The notes beneath the pieces were generated by a model. It did not search any database. It had not been told where the DNA came from and was given only the letters and a program-made list of their open reading frames with translations. Shown here one piece after another: positions 1,639 to 54,377 of a DNA stretch of 64,000 nt; position 1 is the first letter of the stretch, and every line of letters starts with the position of its first letter. The DNA is taken from assembly GCA_024679065.1 (NCBI GenBank), contig JAGIQG010000019.1, forward strand, positions 7,316,001 to 7,380,000, in the 5' to 3' direction. This DNA is from Sphyrna mokarran (Eukaryota). A program made the position numbers and the translations under genes.

Positions 1639-1898
1639 CTGAAAATAGATGGATTCCTGACATGTTCTGGATCCAAGGCACAGCCTTGCATAAATTTATA
1701 GCAGAACCCATTCTGAAAGGTGCAATAAAGTTGTGGTGCACAGCCATGAGCATGCAGTACATGAAAGCTCTTCAGCTCATTTTCACGATCAACAAACAAC
1801 TCTGTCTTGTTACCATAGACTCTCACTAAGACAGCATCGTCTAACGAATCATCAACATAACAAGCAACAAGCTTGTTTGTAATACCATCGGTGAATAC
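1639..1898 (-). CDS. ETNK1: Ethanolamine kinase 1, coding exon 2 (260 nt)
   Basis: Within ORF 1608-1910: VFTDGITNKLVACYVDDSLDDAVLVRVYGNKTELFVDRENELKSFHVLHAHGCAPQLYCTFQNGFCYKFMQGCALDPEHVRNPSIF(R). Choline/ethanolamine kinase N-lobe (GITN, LVRVYG). Acceptor ttgcacag|, donor AG|gtactt. Confidence 0.96.
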
Positions 1899-2040
1899 CT
1901 GTGCAATCAAAATAAAGATTTACAAAAGAAAAACTTTTGTTAACCTGTTAGATAACTCATAAGCTACTGCTGTTAATATGCTCCATTTAGATCATATTCT
2001 AGTATTCCACTGTTAAAAGTGGAGACAAATACAATTAATT

Positions 2041-2442: not shown

Positions 2443-4822
2443 GGATTAGAGAACCGTGGCTTACCAGGGATATTGAGGACTTGATCAGGAAGAAGCGAGA
2501 GGCTTACATTAGACCTAGGCAACTGGGGACTGAGACAGCGCTGGAAGCTTATAGAGAGTGTAGACGGGATCTTAAAAGGGGTGTTAGAAAGGCAAAAAGG
2601 GGCCACGAAGTGGGTCTGGCAGGTAGGATTAAGGAAAATCCTAAAGCATTTTACACCTATGTAAGGAGCAAAAGGATGGTTAGAGGCAAGATTGGACCTC
2701 TCAGGGACAGAGGAGGGGATCTATGCTTAGAGCCTGAGGGAACGGGGGAGATCCTGAATGAATACTTTGCGTCGGTATTCACTCAGGAGACTGGCCAGAT
2801 GTCTGTTGCTGATGTTGACAAAGTTGAAGATCGGTTGAGGGAAATAAAGATTACAAGGAAAGAGGTGTTGGGGCTGTTAGGCAGCTTAAAGACATATAAA
2901 GCTCCGGGGCCTGATGGCATTTACCCCAGGCTGCTAAGGGAGTTGAGGGAAGACCTAGCTGGGCCTCTGACGCAAATCTTGGTCTCTTCCTTGGACACAG
3001 GTGAGGTCCCAGAGGACTGGAGGATAGCAAATGTAGTACCGTTGTTTAAAAAAGGTCAGAGGGATAACCCAGGGAACTATAGGCCGGTGAGCTTGACTTC
3101 AGTTATAGGTAAGCTAATGGAGAGGATCCTTAGGGACAGGATGTACGAGCATCTGGAGCGCTGCGATCTGATCAGGGATACGCAGCATGGCTTCGTCAAG
3201 GGGAAGTCTTGTCTTACAAATCTAGTGGAATTTTTTCAAGAAGTGACAAAAACAGTTGATGAAGGACATGCTGTTGATGTTGTCTACATGGATTTCAGTA
3301 AGGCGTTTGACAAGGTTCCTCAAGGTAGACTGATAGAGAAGGTGAAGGCGCATGGGATACAGGGCCAGGTATGTAGATGGATCGAGAACTGGCTCGGGAG
3401 GAGGAGACAGAGGGTAGTAGTGGAAGGCTCTTTTTCCGACTGGAGGCCTGTCACTAGTGGAGTGCCACAAGGCTCAGTACTAGGTCCTCTTCTATTTGTG
3501 GTTTACATAAACGACTTGGAAGAGGGGGTAGGTGGTAAGATCAGCAAATTTACTGATGACACTAAGATGCTTGGATTGGCGGGTACAGAGGAGCAGTGCC
3601 AGGCAATACATTGGACGTAGATAGGTTGGTAGACTGGGCAGATAGATGGCAAATGGAATTTAATCCGGATAAATGCGAGGTGATGCATTTTGGCCGGAAA
3701 AATGTAAAAGAGAGTTATAGGATAAAAGGTAAAACTATACGGAGCATAGAGACGCAGAGAGACTTGGGGGTGCAGGTTCACAAGTCTCTGAAGGGGTCCT
3801 CACAGGTGGAGAAGGTGATAAAGAAGGCGTATAGTATGTTAGCTTTCATAGAAAAGGGTATAGAATACAAGAGTAGGAGTTTGATGTTGCAATTGTATAG
3901 AACGTTGGTTAGGCTCACTTGGAATACTGCGTCCAGTTCTGGTCGCCGTACTATCGGAAGGATGTGGAGTCCTTGGAGAGAGTGCAGAGGAGGTTTACCA
4001 GGATGCTGCCTGGTACGGAAGGACTGTCTTATGAGGAACGATTAGATAGACTGGGGTTGTTTTCCCTTGAAAGACGTCGGCTTAGAGGGGATCTCATAGA
4101 GGTGTATAAGATTATAAGGGGTATAGATAGAGTAAATGGAGGTAAACTTTTTCCACCTTCAGAAATGAATAGGACGAGGGGTCATGGCCTTAGGGTGAGG
4201 GGGGCTATGTATAAGACGAATATTAGAGGGCAGTTTTTCACACAAAGGGTAGGGGGGGTGTGGAATGCACTGCCGAGTAAGGTGGTGGGAGCAGGCACGC
4301 TAGGGCTGTTTAAGGGTCTCTTGGACAGCCACGTGAGCGTTATGCAGATAGAGGGATATAGTAGGACTGTTTAACTATGGCTTTTTTTCCCACAGGTAAT
4401 TCGGTCCAACTTGACCAACAAGGAGCATGCATTCGGCAGGTGGTGCGAGGACAGCTCTTGGATGTTGATTCATGGGTTGCCTGGTGCTTCATGTCATAAA
4501 TGAGTGCTTTATCTGGACCATCTGAAGGGCACCATGACAGGTCAGTGACTATCGCTGTAGCTGTGCAGACACTTGGAATTGGGCCGGTGTCTGCGGGATT
4601 TTGCGCGTTCTCCCCGTGGTTGCGTGGGTTTCCTCCCACATCCCAAAAAATTCGCTCTTAGGCTGATTGGGAAACAAATTGTCCCTACATTGAGACTCTT
4701 CCATATTAGGAATAACCTAAAATTAGAATAGGATAATGGAATTGTTACTATATAGTTATGACGGCAGCGCGGGCTCGTTGGGCCGAAGGGCCTGTTTCCC
4801 ATGCTGAGTTGCTCTCTCTCTC
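2443..4822 (+). mobile_element. 5'-truncated CR1-clade LINE (ORF2 reverse transcriptase, two frameshifts) with an unusually long composite 3' UTR; in ETNK1 intron 1, antisense to the gene
   Basis: ORFs 2481-3620, 3596-4045 and 3919-4374 give KAPGPDG, NYRPVSLTSV, QHGF, YMDFSKAFDKV, SGVPQGSVLGPLLF, KFTDDTK, EYCVQFWSP, LERRRLRGDLIE. Tail gggccgaagggcctgttt followed by (ct)n. Confidence 0.95.
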
Positions 4823-4999
4823 TCAACCTGTGAGCACACAATTTCTAAAGTTTAAGTTTGAAATCCTTTGATGAAAACCAGGCATTTATCCAAGCCAAGA
4901 AATCCTAAAACAAGCTGCATTTGGACTGCAAGTGATTACATTCAGTACTTTTAACAAAATGGCATGAGAATGGATATTAAGGAAACAAAGTGGAGCTCA

Positions 5000-9245: not shown

Positions 9246-9553
9246 GGCTGCATGATGGCACAATGGTTAGCACTGCTGCCTCACAACGCCAGACACCTGG
9301 TTTCGATTCCTGGGGGTGATACAGTCTATATGGAGTCTGCACATTCTCTCCATATCTGCCTGAGTTTTCTCCAGAAGCTCTGGTTTCCTCTCACAGTCTG
9401 AAAGACGTACTGGTTAGGTGCGCTGGCCATGCCAAATTCTCAGTGTACCTGAACAGGTGCCAGCGTGGCAACTGAGGGCTTTTCACTGTAACTTCATTGC
9501 GTTGTTAATGAAAGCCTACTTGTGACACTAATCAATAATAAGTAAACTTAAAA
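9246..9553 (+). mobile_element. V-domain tRNA-SINE with second tail type
   Basis: Same head and V-domain, but tail ...ttttcactgtaacttcattgc...gcctacttgtgacactaat...aaacttaaa. Confidence 0.8.
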
Positions 9554-11354: not shown

Positions 11355-11915
11355 ATGGGCACATGAACAGAATGGGAATGGAGGGGTGTAGAAAACTGAT
11401 TTAAAATAGGGATCATGAGCCTTGGGAGTCCCTGGGAAGTGTGTAAATAGATGATGATATTGATGTACTTGTTTTTATCCTACAGGTGCTTTGGTCCACC
11501 TTGTTGTCTAATGAGGGGCATACACGCGATGGGTCGTGAGAGGGCTGCCCTTGGATCTTTTTTGAGAGTATCCTACTGCTTCACGTCGTTAGTGCACGCT
11601 TGACCTGGACCATTTGATGGGCAACACGACAGCTCAGTGACTATCGCTGTGCTGTGCAGATACATGGATTTGGGCCTGTGTCTGTGGGAGTTTGCGCATT
11701 CTCCCCGTGCTTGCATGGGTACATCCCAAAGATGTGCTCTTAGGCTAATTGGCAAAACAAATTCTCCCTAAATTGTCTCAAATTTGGTTTTTAATCCATA
11801 GATCTATAAACATGGACAGGGATCGCGGGTTGAAGTGGGAGCATCAGGGTGGCAGCGCGGGCTCGTTGGGCCAAAGGGCCTGCTTCCCGTGCTGTTTTGT
11901 TCTTTGTTCTATGTA
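11355..11915 (+). mobile_element. CR1 3' end with the same composite 3' UTR as 4375-4822
   Basis: Starts with the CR1 ORF2 C-terminus (cacatgaacagaatgggaatggagggg, HMNRMGMEG). Shares the ctggaccat.tga.gggca.ca.gacag.tcagtgactatcgctgt block and the ggcagcgcgggctcgttgggcc tail. Confidence 0.8.
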
Positions 11916-14244: not shown

Positions 14245-14822
14245 GGAATGTTACAGGGAGAAAGGAGGCCATACAGCCCATTGAGTCTGCAATGACAATA
14301 ATTCCATCAAGGCTCTATTCCTGTAACCCCACATATTTGCTCTGTTAATCCCTCTAATTTTCACCTCTTGGGACATTAAAGGCCAATTTAGCATAGCTAA
14401 TCAACCTAACCCGCATGTCTGTGGACAGTGGGAGGAAACCAGGGCACCCGGAGGAAACCCACGCAGACCCGGGGAGAAAGTGCAAACTCTGCACAGACAG
14501 TGACCCCCCCCCACAAGCCGGGAATCGAACCTGAGTCCCCAGCGCTGCGAGGCAGCAGTGCTAACCACTGCGCCACCCAGGTGAAATCACATCAATGAAC
14601 CCAAGCATCAACACAACAGCACCACTTAGAATCCTCTGGGACGAGGTCCTCCCGGGCCATTGAGGGGCAATTTAGCACGGCTCATCGACCTAACTCGCAC
14701 ATCTTTGGACTGTGGGAGGAAACCGGGGCATCCGGAGGAAACTTACGCAGACACGGGGAGAACGTGCAAACTCCAGACAGACCCCACCCCCCCAAGCCAG
14801 GAATCGAACCACTGTGCCACCC
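14245..14822 (-). mobile_element. V-SINE (14245-14578) plus a duplicated partial copy (14660-14822)
   Basis: gggaggaaacc..gcacccggaggaaacccacgcagac.cggggagaa.gtgcaaactc (reverse V-domain) occurs twice; reverse tRNA head at 14520-14578. Confidence 0.85.
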
Positions 14823-14979
14823 AGGTGAAGTGACACCAATAAACTCAACCATCAACATAACAGCATTACTTTAGGCCCTGTGGGGAGAGGTCAATGGGAT
14901 GGCCATGTTCAACCAGCACACACTCTCATTGTCCCTGACCATGCTGGAGGGGGAAGGTCAGACATGGGTCACTGGCTGG

Positions 14980-22917: not shown

Positions 22918-23222
22918 AGGGGCAGCACAGTGACATAGTGGTTAGCACTGCTGCCACACAGCACCAGGGACTCGCATTTGATTCCTCGCTTGGGTCACTG
23001 TCTGTGTGGAGTTTGCACGTTCTCCCTGTGTCTCCGTGGGCTTCATCCAGATTTCTTCCTTCCACATTTCCAAAAATATATGATTAAGTAAATTGGCTGT
23101 GCTAAATTCTCCCTCAGTGTAGTCAAACAGTTGTCGGAATGTGGCAACTAGGGGTTTTCACAATAACTTCACTGCAGTGTGAAGTAAACTGACTTGTAAC
23201 TAACAAATAAATTTTAATTCAA
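22918..23222 (+). mobile_element. V-SINE, second tail type
   Basis: ggggcagcacagtgacatagtggttagcactgctgcc head, V-domain, then aaattctccctcagtgta...ttttcacaataacttcactgcagtgt tail. Confidence 0.85.
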
Positions 23223-32656: not shown

Positions 32657-32935
32657 GAGGTAGCATGGTGGTTAACACTAGTGCTTCACAGCACCAGGCA
32701 CACAGGTTTGATTCCCAGCTTGGGTTCTGTCTGTGTGGAGTCTGCACGTTCTCCCCGGGTCTGCATGGGTTTCCTCCAGGTGTTCCGGTTTCCTTCCAGT
32801 TTGAAAGATGTGCTGATTAGGTGCATTGACCATGTTAAATTCATCCTTGGTATATCCAAACAGGTGCTGGAGTGTGCGACTAGGAAATTTTCATAATAAC
32901 TTTGTTGCAGTGTTAATGTAAGCCGACTAATAAAT
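32657..32935 (+). mobile_element. V-SINE, second tail type
   Basis: tRNA head, V-domain, tail caggtgctggagtgtgcgactaggaaattttcataataacttt. Confidence 0.8.
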
Positions 32936-33225
32936 ATTTGAATTGTACTCATCGTTTCTCATCCCAACTGCTGAGTAATTTCAGCGTTGTGTGTTTTAAT
33001 TTGAATTTTTCTAGAATTTGAAGTTTATTTTTAATTGTGGCTGACTCGTTTACATATTCACTTAATCATTTTACCCTGCAGCAATGTATCTTCTGTTCAC
33101 TGAGCATCAAGCGTATGAGCATTTCAAACAGTTTCAAATGCTAAAATTACAATTGCTGTTATGTTGATCACTGTGCCCTGCCTTCACCAGTAAATCAATG
33201 TGCTGCATTTGTTACATCAAATGTG

Positions 33226-33530
33226 TGACACGGTGGCACAGTGCTTTTATTAGCACTGCTGCCTCTCAGTGCCAGGGACCTGGTTTCGATTCCTGGCTTG
33301 GATCACTGTCTGTGTGGACTCTGCACATTCTCTCCGTGGCTGTGAGAGTTTACTCCGGGTGCTCTGGTCTCCTCCCACAATTTGAAAAATGGGCTGGTTA
33401 GGTTTATTGGCCAAGCTAAATTCTCCCTCAGTGTTCCCAGATAGGTGCCAGTGAGTGGAGACTAGGAAATTTTCATAGTAACTTCATTTCAGTATTAATG
33501 TAAGCCCACTTATGACGCGCAAATTTTAAT
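33226..33530 (+). mobile_element. V-SINE, second tail type
   Basis: cacggtggcacagtg..ttagcactgctgcctc..ggtttcgattcc, V-domain, tail tttcatagtaacttcatt..taatgtaagcc. Confidence 0.85.
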
Positions 33531-50214: not shown

Positions 50215-53120
50215 ACGTAATTGCTTGGCGATTTCAATGCAAGAGTAGGGTGTGACTCTGCAACCTGGCAGGGAGTCATTGGGAGGCATGGAGTGGGCAA
50301 ATGTAACATTAATGGCCTACTCTTAATGAAGACCTGTGCAGCACACGACCTCCTTATCACCGACACAAACTTCCATCGGCCTACCCGTAACAAGACCTCC
50401 TGGATGCACCCCCACTCCAAGCATTGGCGTCTTATAAACTGTTATTGTCATGAGAAAAGACGGGCAGGATGTCAGACTTACCAGGGCCATGTGTGTTGCT
50501 GACTGCTGGACAGATCACAGGCTCATTGTTTCCAAAATGAGGCTCTGCATCAAGCTCAAGAGGCGACCACAAGGAAGCAAGGTTATGAAAAGAATCAATG
50601 CGGCCAAGCTAAAGAACCCCAGCAAAGTTTCAGCACCTGCTGAAGACTTAGAAATCAAACTTGCTGACCTACACCTCGCAGGCAGTGCTGAGGATGACTG
50701 GAAACGCTTCGGGGATGCTATCCATATATCTGCGCTGAAGATGCTCAGGCCCACTACCCGCAAGCAGCATGATTGTTTGATGAGAATGATGAGGAGATAC
50801 AGGCTGCACTTGTTGAAAAGCACCATCTTCATGGGGCCTGTCAGAATGACCCATCTTCAACTGCCAAGAAAAATGCTTTTACCAGTGCTCGCAGGACAGT
50901 CCAGAATAAACTGCGTAAAATGCAGGATGCCTGGCTGAGCACCAAGGCAGATGAACTACAGGGATATGCTGACAGAAATGACTTGAAATGGTTCTATGAA
51001 GCCCTCAACGCTCTCTACGGACCTCAGTCTCTCGGGCATACACCCCTTCTGAGCACAATGGTCAAACTCTCATTACAGAAGAGGCTCAAGATCCTGCAGA
51101 GATGGGCTGAACACTTTTTGAAGCTGTCCTCAACGGATCATCAACTATTAACGATGAGGCAATAGACAGGATTCCCCAAGTTGATATCAACAGTGCCACT
51201 GATGGTCCACTGATAGCTGAAGTCACGAAAGCTGTTCAGCCAGCTACCCAGTGGCAAAGCGCCTGGGGGAGATGCCATATCCACAGAGATTTATAAAGCT
51301 GCTGGTCCTGCACTTATCGAGAAGCTTACTGAGTTGTTCCAGATGTTTTGGAAGCAAGGATCCATTCCTCAGGAACTTAAAGATGCTTCCATCGTACACC
51401 TCTACAAGAGGAAGGGCAATCAGCAAGTATGCAACAACCGCCGAGGAATCTTGCTACTCTCCACCACAAGAAAAACCCTTGCAAGAGGCCTGCTAAATTA
51501 TCTGGTCACTCTTCTGGAGCTGGGCCTGCTTCCAGAGTCACACTGTGGCTTCCGCAAAGGTAGTGGAACTACTGACGTGATTTTTGCTGCATGCCAACTC
51601 CAGGAAAAGTGTCAGGAGCAGAATCACGAGCTCTACACAACCTTTGTTGGCCTCGCGAAAGCCTTCAATGCTGAAAGCCGACAAGGTCTATGGAGGATCA
51701 TGTCAAAATTCGGCTGCCTTCCCACATTCGTTCAGGTAGTACGCTGGTTCCATGATGGCTAGAGTACTGGATGGCGGAGAATCCTCTGAGGCATTCCAGT
51801 CACCAGTGGCATCAAACAGGGCTTGCACCCACCCTGTTCAGCATGATGTTTACTGCCATGCTGAATGATGTCTTCCAGGACAGTGTTGCTGGAATCAGTC
51901 TCAAATACAGAGTGGATGAGAAGCTCTTCAACCTGAGGAGACTTCAAGCTATTACCAAAGTGAAAGAGACTGTTCTGAGAGATTTCCTGTTTGCCGATAA
52001 CTGCCCTCTGTATGCTGGCTCAGATGTGGAGATGCCGGTGTTGGACTGGGGTAAACACATTAAGAAGTCTCACAACACCAGATTAAAGTCCAACCAGTTT
52101 ATTTGATAGTAAACCCACAAGCTTTCCAGATTTGACCCTTCGTCAGGTGAGTGGAGAGTTCTGGCTCAGAGCCAGAATTGCAAGTCAGTATGGACGAATT
52201 ATCCACGGCTTGTGACAACTTTGGACTCACCATCAACATTAAAAGGACCAAAGTCATGCATCAGCCTGCTCCTCGTGCACCGTACCCAGAACCCATAATC
52301 AAAGGGCAGAAACTACAGGCAGTGGACCAGTTCACTTATCTCAGCAGCATCCTCTCCCAAGCAGTGACCATTGATATAGAAGTTAACTGCAAAAGAGCAA
52401 AGGCAAGTTCTGCTTTCAGTAGACTGCGCTCCACTATATGCGAACGTTGAGGAATCAGCTCAGCAACAAAACCGAAAGTCGACAGCACTACGGTACTCAC
52501 TACCTTCCTGTGTGCCTGTGAAATGTGGACTGCATATCGAAGGCATGCAAGCCAACTCAATCATTTCTACGTGACTTGTTCTTCGCATCCGTTTGCAAGA
52601 CAAAAAGTACCAGACACTGAAGCTCTCTCTAGAGCAAGTCTACCATCAATCCACACATTGCTGATGAGAGCTCAGACCCGATGGACAGTCATGTCACCTG
52701 CATGTCAAACGAGCACATATCCAAGTAGCTCCTTATGGGGGAACTCTCTGCTGGAAGACGCTCACATGGAGGTCAGAAGAAATGTTTCAGAGACATACTT
52801 GAGGCCTCCCTGAAGTCACTTGACAATGACACACCACCTGGGAAATGCTGGCACAAAACCGCCCCACCTGGTGCTGCCTCATCCACAAAGGCTGTCAAGC
52901 TCATGAAGCAAGGTGTATTGCTGAAGCACAACTTAAGTACGAGCTGCGCAAGTCCAGAGCCACTAGCGCAACAACTACAGTGTCTACACAAATCTGTCCA
53001 ACGTGTGCCAGTACATTCCGTGCCTAAATTGGCTTGATCAGTCATCTTTGGACACACCGCAACCAGCCTCAAAATGACTAATGATGTCGAGGTCCTCATC
53101 GATGACTGTGGACAAACGAC
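50215..53120 (+). mobile_element. RTE-clade (BovB-like) LINE, 5'-truncated within the APE domain, multiple frameshifts
   Basis: LGDFNARVG, TSWMHPHSKHW, CWTDHRL (APE); PQELKDASIVHLYKRKG, LPESHCGFR, QEKCQEQN, SGIKQG, LFADN, QFTYLSS (RT); C-terminal CPTC..C2H2-like motif. Flanked by a 50-bp direct duplication. Confidence 0.92.
52024..52160 (-). mobile_element. Penelope-like terminal fragment with minimal hammerhead core, inserted into the RTE RT
   Basis: TSD ctggctcag(a) at 52015-52024 and 52161-52170. Minus strand CTCAC CTGACGA agggtcaaatctg GAAA GC TT GTGGG. Confidence 0.85.
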
Positions 53121-54377
53121 ACATTTTGCACCCTCTCCCTTCCTTCTGTATGAACGGTATGCTTTGTATAGCACACAAGAAACAATACTTTTCACTGTGC
53201 TAATACATGTGACAATAAATCAAAATCACATACATGAGTAAACCCAGACGACGTTGTCTAGAGATTCAAGAAGGTGTCTCATCACCACCTTGTTAAGGGC
53301 AATTACGGATGGACAATGAACACTGGCCTAGCCAGCAATGCCCACATCCAGTGACAAAATAGAAACAAAGGTGGATTTTGCAGACTGGACTGTGCACATA
53401 TCATCTTCTGGGTCCTGATTCCATTATCAGGGTTACAGCGGTCTGGTTTTATCTTTTAAGGATGCTGCACCACTGGTCGAAAGTACACGGAGCTGATGTT
53501 TTTCTTCCTTGAATGTAGGATTAACATAGAAGCTGAATTATCACAAGCAAATTTTTAATTTTTTTAGCCTTTTAAAAATTGTGTTTTTGTTGCAATGGAG
53601 ACATTGATATTCTGCAAACATAAAATTGATTCTCAATTCAGCAGTAGTTACAAACTTAGTAAACTGTTAACTTTGTTACATCTCATTCAGCAAGGTAATT
53701 TTTCAAAGATTTTTGCACTGGAGCAAATAGCATAGAAGTTGAGGTTTGTGCCAATTCAGCTGATATTCTAATGATGTCTGTTTGCGGAAACTTCATCACA
53801 CAATGGTGAGGAGCAGGAAATCTCTCTCAGCAGCTTCTGGTTTCCATGTTCAACTCTGCATGTGTGGCTGTCAAGAGTTGCTGTAAGTTTTACAGTTGTA
53901 ATGAGGACAAACACTGACAATTTCACTGTTACTGCAATGGCAAAATCTGGGCCTGTCTATTTCTACTTTAACCAGAGCCTTTCTTCCCTCAGTGAGAAAA
54001 GACCCTTTTCCTGAAAGGAAGACTTGTGAACCAAACTTAATTTATGCCTTTCCTTGTTTTTGTACTGTATTTTGAAACAATTTTGTTTTAAGTATCTACG
54101 CATTTGTTAGAGTATGAAGAGGCAGCTGTAGTAAATTGTGAATGAGGTAGTCGTGTAGTTTTAACTAAGCTGCAAGCCTGTTTATGGCCATGTATTTTTT
54201 AAAAAATGATTAGTTAAATAAATGCCGTAGTTAGGCTGTGAATAAGAAAGTAGGCTTTTAATTTTAAACTTAATGCTAAACACTCAAGTACGACCCAACT
54301 TCTGAAAACAGAGTTGACAAGTATTTCTCAGGGCAAAGCTGAGGGAAATGTGCAGGAGAAAGATGGTTCATTTTGTG

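What the first reader, a model, noticed from the sequence alone, without database searches (positions are those of the whole stretch)
4375..4822. CR1 LINE lineage that appears to have captured a whole V-SINE in its 3' UTR and re-amplified it
Seen: after the ORF2 stop (4374) the LINE does not end in a short tail. It has ~150 nt of unique sequence, then gggcaccatgacaggtcagtgactatcgctgtagctgtgcag (from 4527), which aligns without gaps to the tRNA head of the free SINEs here (gggc.gcacggt.gcacagtggttagcactgctgcctcacag). A V-domain (4585-4690) follows, then the CR1 tail. A separate insertion at 11355-11915 has the same order: ORF2 end, spacer, decayed head from 11619, V-domain, tail. Both share the same derived substitutions (GACTATCGCTG for GGTTAGCACTG; B-box lost) although their spacers and tails have diverged. 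A third tail copy lies at 48832-48982. Established: elasmobranch HE1 SINEs borrow the 3' tail of a CR1-type LINE. Inference: flow here ran the other way; a LINE absorbed its SINE once, retained the V-domain and diversified into at least two subfamilies.
Basis: partly seen in the sequence, partly recalled or inferred. Interest (0 to 1): 0.72.

Follow-up and report, generated by a model that had tools for sequence, protein, structure and literature searches.

The report
Shark LINE keeps captured SINE fold
An abundant self-copying DNA element in this shark-like genome carries the front half of a small parasitic element inside its untranslated tail; the parasite's promoter has decayed but its predicted RNA fold is kept, which suggests that this long-unexplained piece likely does a job in the RNA.

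Summary
Confirmed, with corrections. One CR1 LINE lineage (27,298 exact hits of a head motif) carries a ~620-nt insert between the ORF2 stop and its own tail. The derived head is not free-standing: 30 of 30 sampled copies have the spacer directly upstream. An older subfamily keeps the full tRNA head, so the direction is SINE to LINE. Corrections: the capture is head plus V domain (~200 nt), not the whole SINE; the tail is the LINE's own; the spacers are homologous (76%) and predicted to fold. Between subfamilies the V domain differs at 10/116 sites against 51% of ORF2 synonymous sites, and 47 of 49 predicted SINE base pairs survive 30 substitutions (null 39.1). Seven loci are SINE-head/LINE-tail hybrids joined inside the V domain. 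Function and splicing at an acceptor-like motif are untested. The scan noted this lineage before in other windows of this genome. Nine literature searches found no description; Repbase and Dfam could not be checked.

The parts
2443..4374 (+). 5'-truncated CR1 ORF2 remnant (subfamily A), in three frame pieces; stop TAA 4372-4374
   Evidence: RVT_1 E=3e-27
4375..4395 (+). splice-acceptor-like motif (pyrimidine run, CAG|G) directly after the stop; use in splicing untested
   Evidence: present in the consensus of subfamilies A2, B, C, E, F and in this copy
4396..4526 (+). spacer of unknown origin, predicted to fold; closing stem 4403-4408 with 4514-4519
   Evidence: z -3.4 to -4.6 for A, B, C, -2.4 for F; pair counts; no Rfam family
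4527..4587 (+). decayed tRNA-derived V-SINE head: A-box mutated, B-box arm shortened by about 19 nt
4588..4685 (+). V domain; this copy has a private 19-nt deletion between direct repeats
4686..4762 (+). post-V linker, fast-evolving, unrelated to the linkers of the free SINEs
4763..4824 (+). the LINE's own CR1 3' tail and terminal microsatellite
   Evidence: subfamily F tail matches the short-UTR sister LINE far better than the free SINE tail
11355..11915 (+). 5'-truncated subfamily B copy: ORF2 end to 11404, acceptor-like AG 11484-11485, spacer 11486-11618, head 11619-11678, V 11679-11768, linker, tail from 11851
48832..48982 (-). 5'-truncated subfamily B copy: end of V, linker and tail only

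Best explanation
One CR1 LINE lineage carries a ~620-nt block between its ORF2 stop and its own tail, including the head and V domain of an HE1-type V-SINE, likely taken up once, and the predicted RNA fold of that piece has likely been kept by selection because it helps the LINE RNA get copied. Shown: the insert's position, its high copy number, one clade for both the SINE piece and ORF2, stepwise decay of the Pol III boxes (F keeps the whole head; E, B, C, A lose the B-box arm tip), and slow change of head and V. Inferred: uptake by a template switch or recombination in a master copy; selection on RNA structure; a cis role in RNA stability or RNP assembly rather than in transcription. The shared V sequence also appears to let incoming LINE cDNA join resident free SINEs in register, which yields SINE-head/LINE-tail hybrids.
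For: 30/30 head-motif loci have the spacer directly upstream and 26/30 run into ORF2. Of 334 V hits with a head, 213 are derived (210 with spacer by profile, 3 at a locus edge or truncated inside the spacer) and 0 of 108 canonical heads have a spacer (sample enriched for carriers). F head 52-54/79 identical to free SINE heads with one gap. Head+V tree: 40 carriers against 27 free SINEs, 100/100. ORF2 tree: 36 carriers in one clade, 100/99, next to a short-UTR CR1. That sister aligns without gaps to F up to the stop (86/116) and again over the tail (54/59), leaving 633 nt against 11 between. A-B: synonymous sites 0.51 (dS 0.87), V 10/116 (Fisher p=7e-12), 5' head 2/42, linker 27/68. 47/49 SINE pairs still pair after 30 substitutions; null 39.1+/-1.9, p=0.0005. 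V-hairpin deletion: 45 copies against 6,895 intact, on several backgrounds, no amplified subfamily seen. Hybrids.
Against: No experiment. Folds are predictions from consensus sequences. Spacer covariation is modest: 5 pairs with two-sided change, not above shuffles (190/500). Few master lineages, so the failure of deletions to amplify is weak evidence. The short-UTR CR1 families do well without the module (68 of 192 ORF2 ends). With my automatic labels the one-clade test on ORF2 was rejected (p=4e-5 and 5e-8); inspection traced this to nested or mislabelled rows and one true exception, L185. The origin of the non-SINE parts of the block is unknown.
Confidence: 0.7

Rival explanations
1. Neutral passenger: the insert hitch-hiked on a successful master, and V looks conserved because of gene conversion among subfamilies or from the many free V-SINEs.
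For: V core of F differs from the free SINE at only 3/72 sites. Seven hybrids show that V sequences do exchange. Other CR1 families thrive without the module.
Against: Lineage-specific V changes are shared by all four subfamily consensuses, so free SINEs have not reset them. The derived 5' head has no free donor yet is just as conserved (1-4 of 42). Head+V and ORF2 trees give a similar order (F, E, then B and C+A). Substitutions spare base pairs, while flanking linkers decay.
Confidence: 0.17
2. The selected unit is a terminal exon: the acceptor after the ORF2 stop is used to splice LINE or host transcripts onto the spacer-SINE-tail module.
For: The pyrimidine-CAG|G motif survives in all subfamilies while the stretch from stop to acceptor shrank from 167 nt (F) to 81 (B) and 21 (A).
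Against: Only 78 B-type copies have other sequence at the junction, and the 30 examined share no spliced upstream exon. No reading frame is conserved behind the acceptor.
Confidence: 0.15
3. One reading: a whole V-SINE with its tail was absorbed, from a now extinct SINE subfamily that shared the sister LINE's tail.
For: A SINE partnered with the sister LINE would carry the same tail. Seven loci have a canonical head followed by the carrier-type 3' end.
Against: Those loci are single copies with different junctions, and in five of them the resident SINE resumes after the LINE tail, so they read as later insertions, not a donor family. Of 30 loci sampled by the post-V motif alone, 24 have the derived head, 5 are truncated and 1 is such a hybrid.
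Confidence: 0.1
4. Opposite direction or independent events: the V-SINE arose from this LINE's UTR, or the loci are separate SINE insertions.
For: LINE parts do give rise to SINE bodies in RTE and Vingi clades (PMC5786205, abstract and passages).
Against: V-SINEs range from vertebrates to cnidarians (PMC4824008, passages). The carrier lineage is nested among short-UTR CR1s. The Pol III boxes are intact in the SINE and decay stepwise in the LINE. The junction is the same in all carriers.
Confidence: 0.02

Closest known systems
HE1 V-SINE and its partner LINE HER1 of sharks and rays (table row in PMC3747384; the Ogiwara 1999 and 2002 originals were not held; assigning the name HE1 to the free family here is my inference)
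   Same: tRNA head, V domain and CR1-type tail occur in the free SINEs of this genome; the captured piece is 66-68% (head) and 82-86% (V) identical to them
   Different: here head+V sit inside an autonomous LINE's 3' UTR, without working Pol III boxes and without the SINE tail
MER6/MER6A, a mammalian Tc1/Mariner MITE carrying a V-SINE fragment (PMC6887750, parts 1-3 of 5 read)
   Same: a V-SINE piece captured by another mobile element and spread by it
   Different: MER6 is a non-autonomous DNA element holding body and tail without the head, and the authors report no sign of selection on the copies; here the carrier is an autonomous RNA-copied LINE that holds head and V, with signs of selection on the fold
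Ceph-domain-like sequence in the 5' UTR of Ingi-3_AC and R4-1_ADi (PMC5786205, passage)
   Same: SINE-body-like sequence in a LINE UTR; recombination with a SINE was suggested for Ingi-3_AC
   Different: 5' UTR, a short RTE-derived piece, no tRNA head, direction not established
U6/L1 and Alu/L1 chimeric insertions (PMC13174262, passages); BovB LINEs with incorporated SINEs (recalled, not found)
   Same: small-RNA or SINE sequence fused to a LINE during retrotransposition
   Different: the U6/L1 chimeras are 5' fusions that usually do not propagate; this one is internal to the 3' UTR and founded a family of tens of thousands of copies

Membership tests
CR1 LINE (vertebrate, esterase ORF1) | ORF2 with APE endonuclease and reverse transcriptase | tested here: met
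   Exo_endo_phos_2 E=5e-12 and RVT_1 E=1e-33 in subfamily A copies L180 and L175
CR1 LINE (vertebrate, esterase ORF1) | esterase-type ORF1 (PMC13343379, passage) | tested here: met
   Lipase_GDSL_2 E=2e-8 in L180; three copies share about 4.6 kb
CR1 LINE (vertebrate, esterase ORF1) | 3' stem-loop tail ending in a microsatellite; frequent 5' truncation | tested here: met
CR1 LINE (vertebrate, esterase ORF1) | RT phylogeny with named CR1 reference elements | not testable with these tools
   no Repbase or Dfam sequences held; tree built only from this genome's copies
V-SINE (captured piece) | V domain | tested here: met
   F differs from the free SINE consensus at 17/118 sites, core 3/72; 'V domain' for the free SINE body is a recalled label, no reference sequence was held
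V-SINE (captured piece) | tRNA-derived head with intact A and B boxes | tested here: not met
   head homologous but boxes mutated in F, B-box arm deleted in E, B, C, A
V-SINE (captured piece) | free-standing insertions starting at the head | tested here: not met
   0 of 30; 0 of 213
V-SINE (captured piece) | SINE's own linker and LINE-derived tail | tested here: not met
5S rRNA-derived (SINE3-type) head for the spacer | similarity to 5S rRNA | tested here: not met
   p=0.4-0.9 against this genome's 5S
Functional 3' splice site | spliced RNA or spliced genomic copies joined at CAG|G | tested here: inconclusive
   no spliced family among 30 of 78 junction copies; contig-level RNA data cannot resolve it

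The most novel reading that the evidence does not exclude
The V domain with its tRNA-derived arms is a portable cis-acting RNA structure that improves retrotransposition of any RNA carrying it. An autonomous LINE has domesticated it without its promoter, and because LINE and SINE now share it, it also bridges tail exchange between them, as seven hybrid loci suggest.
Probability: 0.4. Interest if true: 0.8.

Novelty: new variant of a known kind. Interest (0 to 1): 0.6.

Why it matters
Why SINE central domains stay conserved over hundreds of millions of years is open. [quoted passage not shown] Here a V domain sits in an autonomous LINE, separated from Pol III transcription, and is still conserved in sequence and predicted fold. 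That points to a role in the RNA and makes it testable in a standard cis retrotransposition assay. The hybrids are candidate snapshots of tail exchange. In practice, tens of thousands of these copies could be mis-annotated as free SINEs.

Tried and rejected
5S rRNA origin of the spacer: rejected. Rfam family for the spacer or UTR: none. Post-stop stretch as a decayed first LINE tail (read-through or 3' transduction): not significant, p=0.27 and 0.44; the planned comparison of the post-V linker with ORF2 ends failed in that script and was not repeated. Copies of the post-stop or post-V segments outside the element: none among 44 and 47 hits in about 1 Mb of loci. A spliced non-autonomous family: not seen in 30 of 78 loci. 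A conserved frame after the acceptor: none. A subfamily with a more SINE-like 5' head than F: the 100 listed of 275 hits look almost all like single-base variants of known subfamilies. RNA: contigs of a run guessed to be RNA from the same organism code cover all 30 bins of a full-length copy; none of the 15 joints shown (35 not shown) ends at the acceptor; contigs cannot show splicing or absence. One other-organism run covered ORF bins but not the UTR and one gave nothing; neither shows absence. Two pattern searches for further hybrids gave 2 unrelated hits and 0 hits. Target-site duplications at the window copies: none evident by eye.

Full report
What is there. The window holds a 5'-truncated CR1 ORF2 remnant (2443-4374, RVT_1 E=3e-27). 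After the stop come an acceptor-like motif (4375-4395), a 131-nt spacer, a decayed tRNA head (4527-4587), a V domain (4588-4685), a linker and a CR1 tail (4763-4824). The copy at 11355-11915 has the same order, and the two align at 76% over 315 nt from the pyrimidine run onward, so the spacers are homologous. The copy at 48832-48982 is only the 3' end of the second type. I call the host shark-like because its free SINEs fit the description of HE1; that label is my inference.

Abundance and context. A 17-nt motif of the derived head has 27,298 exact hits (control 0) and a 13-nt spacer motif 37,393 (control 27). In the first 30 head-motif loci, all have the spacer directly upstream, 26 run on into ORF2 and 4 are truncated inside the UTR. 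Across about 1 Mb of loci, enriched for carriers by how they were fetched, 334 of 361 V hits included a head: 213 derived, 108 canonical, 13 unclear. 210 derived heads had the spacer by profile, the other 3 were at a locus edge or truncated inside the spacer, and no canonical head had it. Three subfamily A copies share about 4.6 kb with an esterase ORF1 and an endonuclease-RT ORF2, so the carrier is an autonomous-type CR1; the longest open ORF2 piece seen was 758 codons.

Direction and order of events. An older subfamily, F (30 loci), keeps the whole head: 52-54 of 79 sites match the two free SINE families with one gap, including a decayed B-box and the linker into V. Later subfamilies (E, B, C, A) lack the tip of the B-box arm. 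Head+V of 40 carriers form one side of a branch against 27 free SINEs (100/100; carriers subsampled to 8 per label). In a tree of ORF2 3' ends, 36 of 40 rows labelled as carriers form a clade (100/99) next to a short-UTR CR1; the one-clade test on all 40 was rejected. Inspection showed one label error, two separate upstream LINEs with their own tails, and one true exception, L185, where another CR1's ORF2 joins the F UTR. A second labelling dropped 31 unclassifiable rows and used 45 of 108 carriers; 44 of them plus two carriers mislabelled as non-carriers form a clade (86/92), again without L185, and the test was again rejected with those labels.

How much was captured. The sister family (25 loci) aligns to F without gaps up to the stop (86/116) and again over the tail (54/59), with 633 nt in F against 11 in the sister between them. 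The F tail scores 103 against the sister and 43 against the free SINE tail. Homology to the free SINEs stops at about position 204 and the post-V linker matches neither family. So a ~620-nt block lies inside the LINE's own UTR, and about 200 nt of it is SINE. The origin of the rest is unknown: not 5S, no Rfam family, not a recognisable first tail. A template switch or recombination in a master copy is my inference.

Signs of selection. I ran this test after earlier scan notes mentioned it. Over 126 ORF2 codons, subfamilies A and B differ at 51% of synonymous sites (dS 0.87, dN 0.19), but at 10/116 V sites (Fisher p=7e-12), 2/42 in the 5' head and 7/58 in the tail; the spacer differs at 37/131 and the linker at 27/68. 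F-B and F-A behave alike. The predicted head+V fold is shared by F and the free SINEs (43 of 49 pairs in both minimum-energy structures), and 47 of 49 SINE pairs can still form after 30 substitutions, against 39.1+/-1.9 when the same substitutions are placed at random (p=0.0005). The captured version is predicted to be more stable (z -5.4 against -1.9 and -2.3). The spacer folds with z -2.4 to -4.6; 98% of cells pair across 24 copies, but pairs with two-sided change (5) do not exceed shuffles. A deletion of the V hairpin recurs on several backgrounds but stays rare: 45 copies against 6,895 intact. All folds are predictions.

The acceptor-like motif. It survives while the stretch from stop to acceptor shrinks from 167 to 81 to 21 nt. 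No spliced family appeared among 30 of 78 B-type copies with other sequence at the junction, no frame is conserved behind it, and contig-level RNA data could not decide. It may simply be the 5' edge of the structured module.

Hybrids. Seven loci have a canonical SINE head followed by the carrier's 3' V, linker and (in six) tail: L294, L295, L296, L297, L298, L324, L353. In five, the resident SINE resumes right after the LINE tail, at different V positions, and the switch from SINE to LINE states falls at different places. They read as LINE insertions into free SINEs whose 5' junction was resolved in register through the shared V sequence. Five of the seven came from searches that favour such hybrids; in the one search blind to the 5' side, 2 of 5 insertions at one V site were in register. 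None has close copies among the hits, so none is shown to have founded a family.

Literature. Nine searches found no description of a V-SINE piece in a CR1 UTR. Seen: PMC3747384 (table row, references), PMC5786205 (abstract, passages), PMC4824008 (passages), PMC6887750 (parts 1-3 of 5), PMC5804259 (passages), PMC13343379 (passages; no mention of such a UTR among the hits), PMC13174262 (passages), PMC9252281 (one passage, nothing relevant), PMC4176376 (abstract: stringent LINEs recognise their own tail). The Ogiwara papers, Repbase, Dfam and all supplements were not seen; a curated consensus may already contain this UTR. The closest precedent is MER6.

Verdict. A real, abundant LINE-SINE composite, a new variant of a known kind. 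History about 0.9 likely, selection on the fold about 0.75, a direct benefit to retrotransposition about 0.5. The scan has noted the lineage before in other windows of this genome (8 notes shown of 48 that fit); those notes are not independent support.

Noticed in passing
L113, L114, L115 (G000:C794, about 43.70-43.72 Mb): A 5'-truncated subfamily B copy is part of the ~3.3-kb repeat unit of a 5S rDNA array, ending about 230 nt upstream of each 5S gene, so it has been amplified with the array.
   Followed up: partly
L295, L296, L297, L298, L324 (also L294, L353): SINE-head/LINE-tail hybrids joined inside the V domain, with the resident SINE resuming after the LINE tail in five.
   Followed up: yes
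window 9256-9550, 22930-23220, 32660-32940, 33230-33530: A second free V-SINE family with the same head and V but a different linker and tail (I recall it as L2-like; PMC13343379 reports full-length L2 missing in galeomorph sharks, so the label is uncertain).
   Followed up: partly
window 1639-1902, minus strand: An exon whose translation resembles ethanolamine kinase 1 (recalled label); the LINE at the finding lies antisense, probably in an intron of this gene.
   Followed up: no
window 14360-14900, minus strand: Two V-SINE units in tandem that share about 86 nt of upstream flank (79% identical), a local duplication.
   Followed up: no
window 50438-53219: A decayed LINE ORF2 of another clade (RTE-like by eye).
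   Followed up: no
L185:1024-1500: ORF2 of a different CR1 family joined directly to the subfamily F 3' UTR; a single case of possible UTR exchange.
   Followed up: partly
L123, L125, L126, L127, L130, L131 (subfamily A2): This branch has lost the short hairpin of the spacer while keeping its closing stem and long arm.
   Followed up: partly
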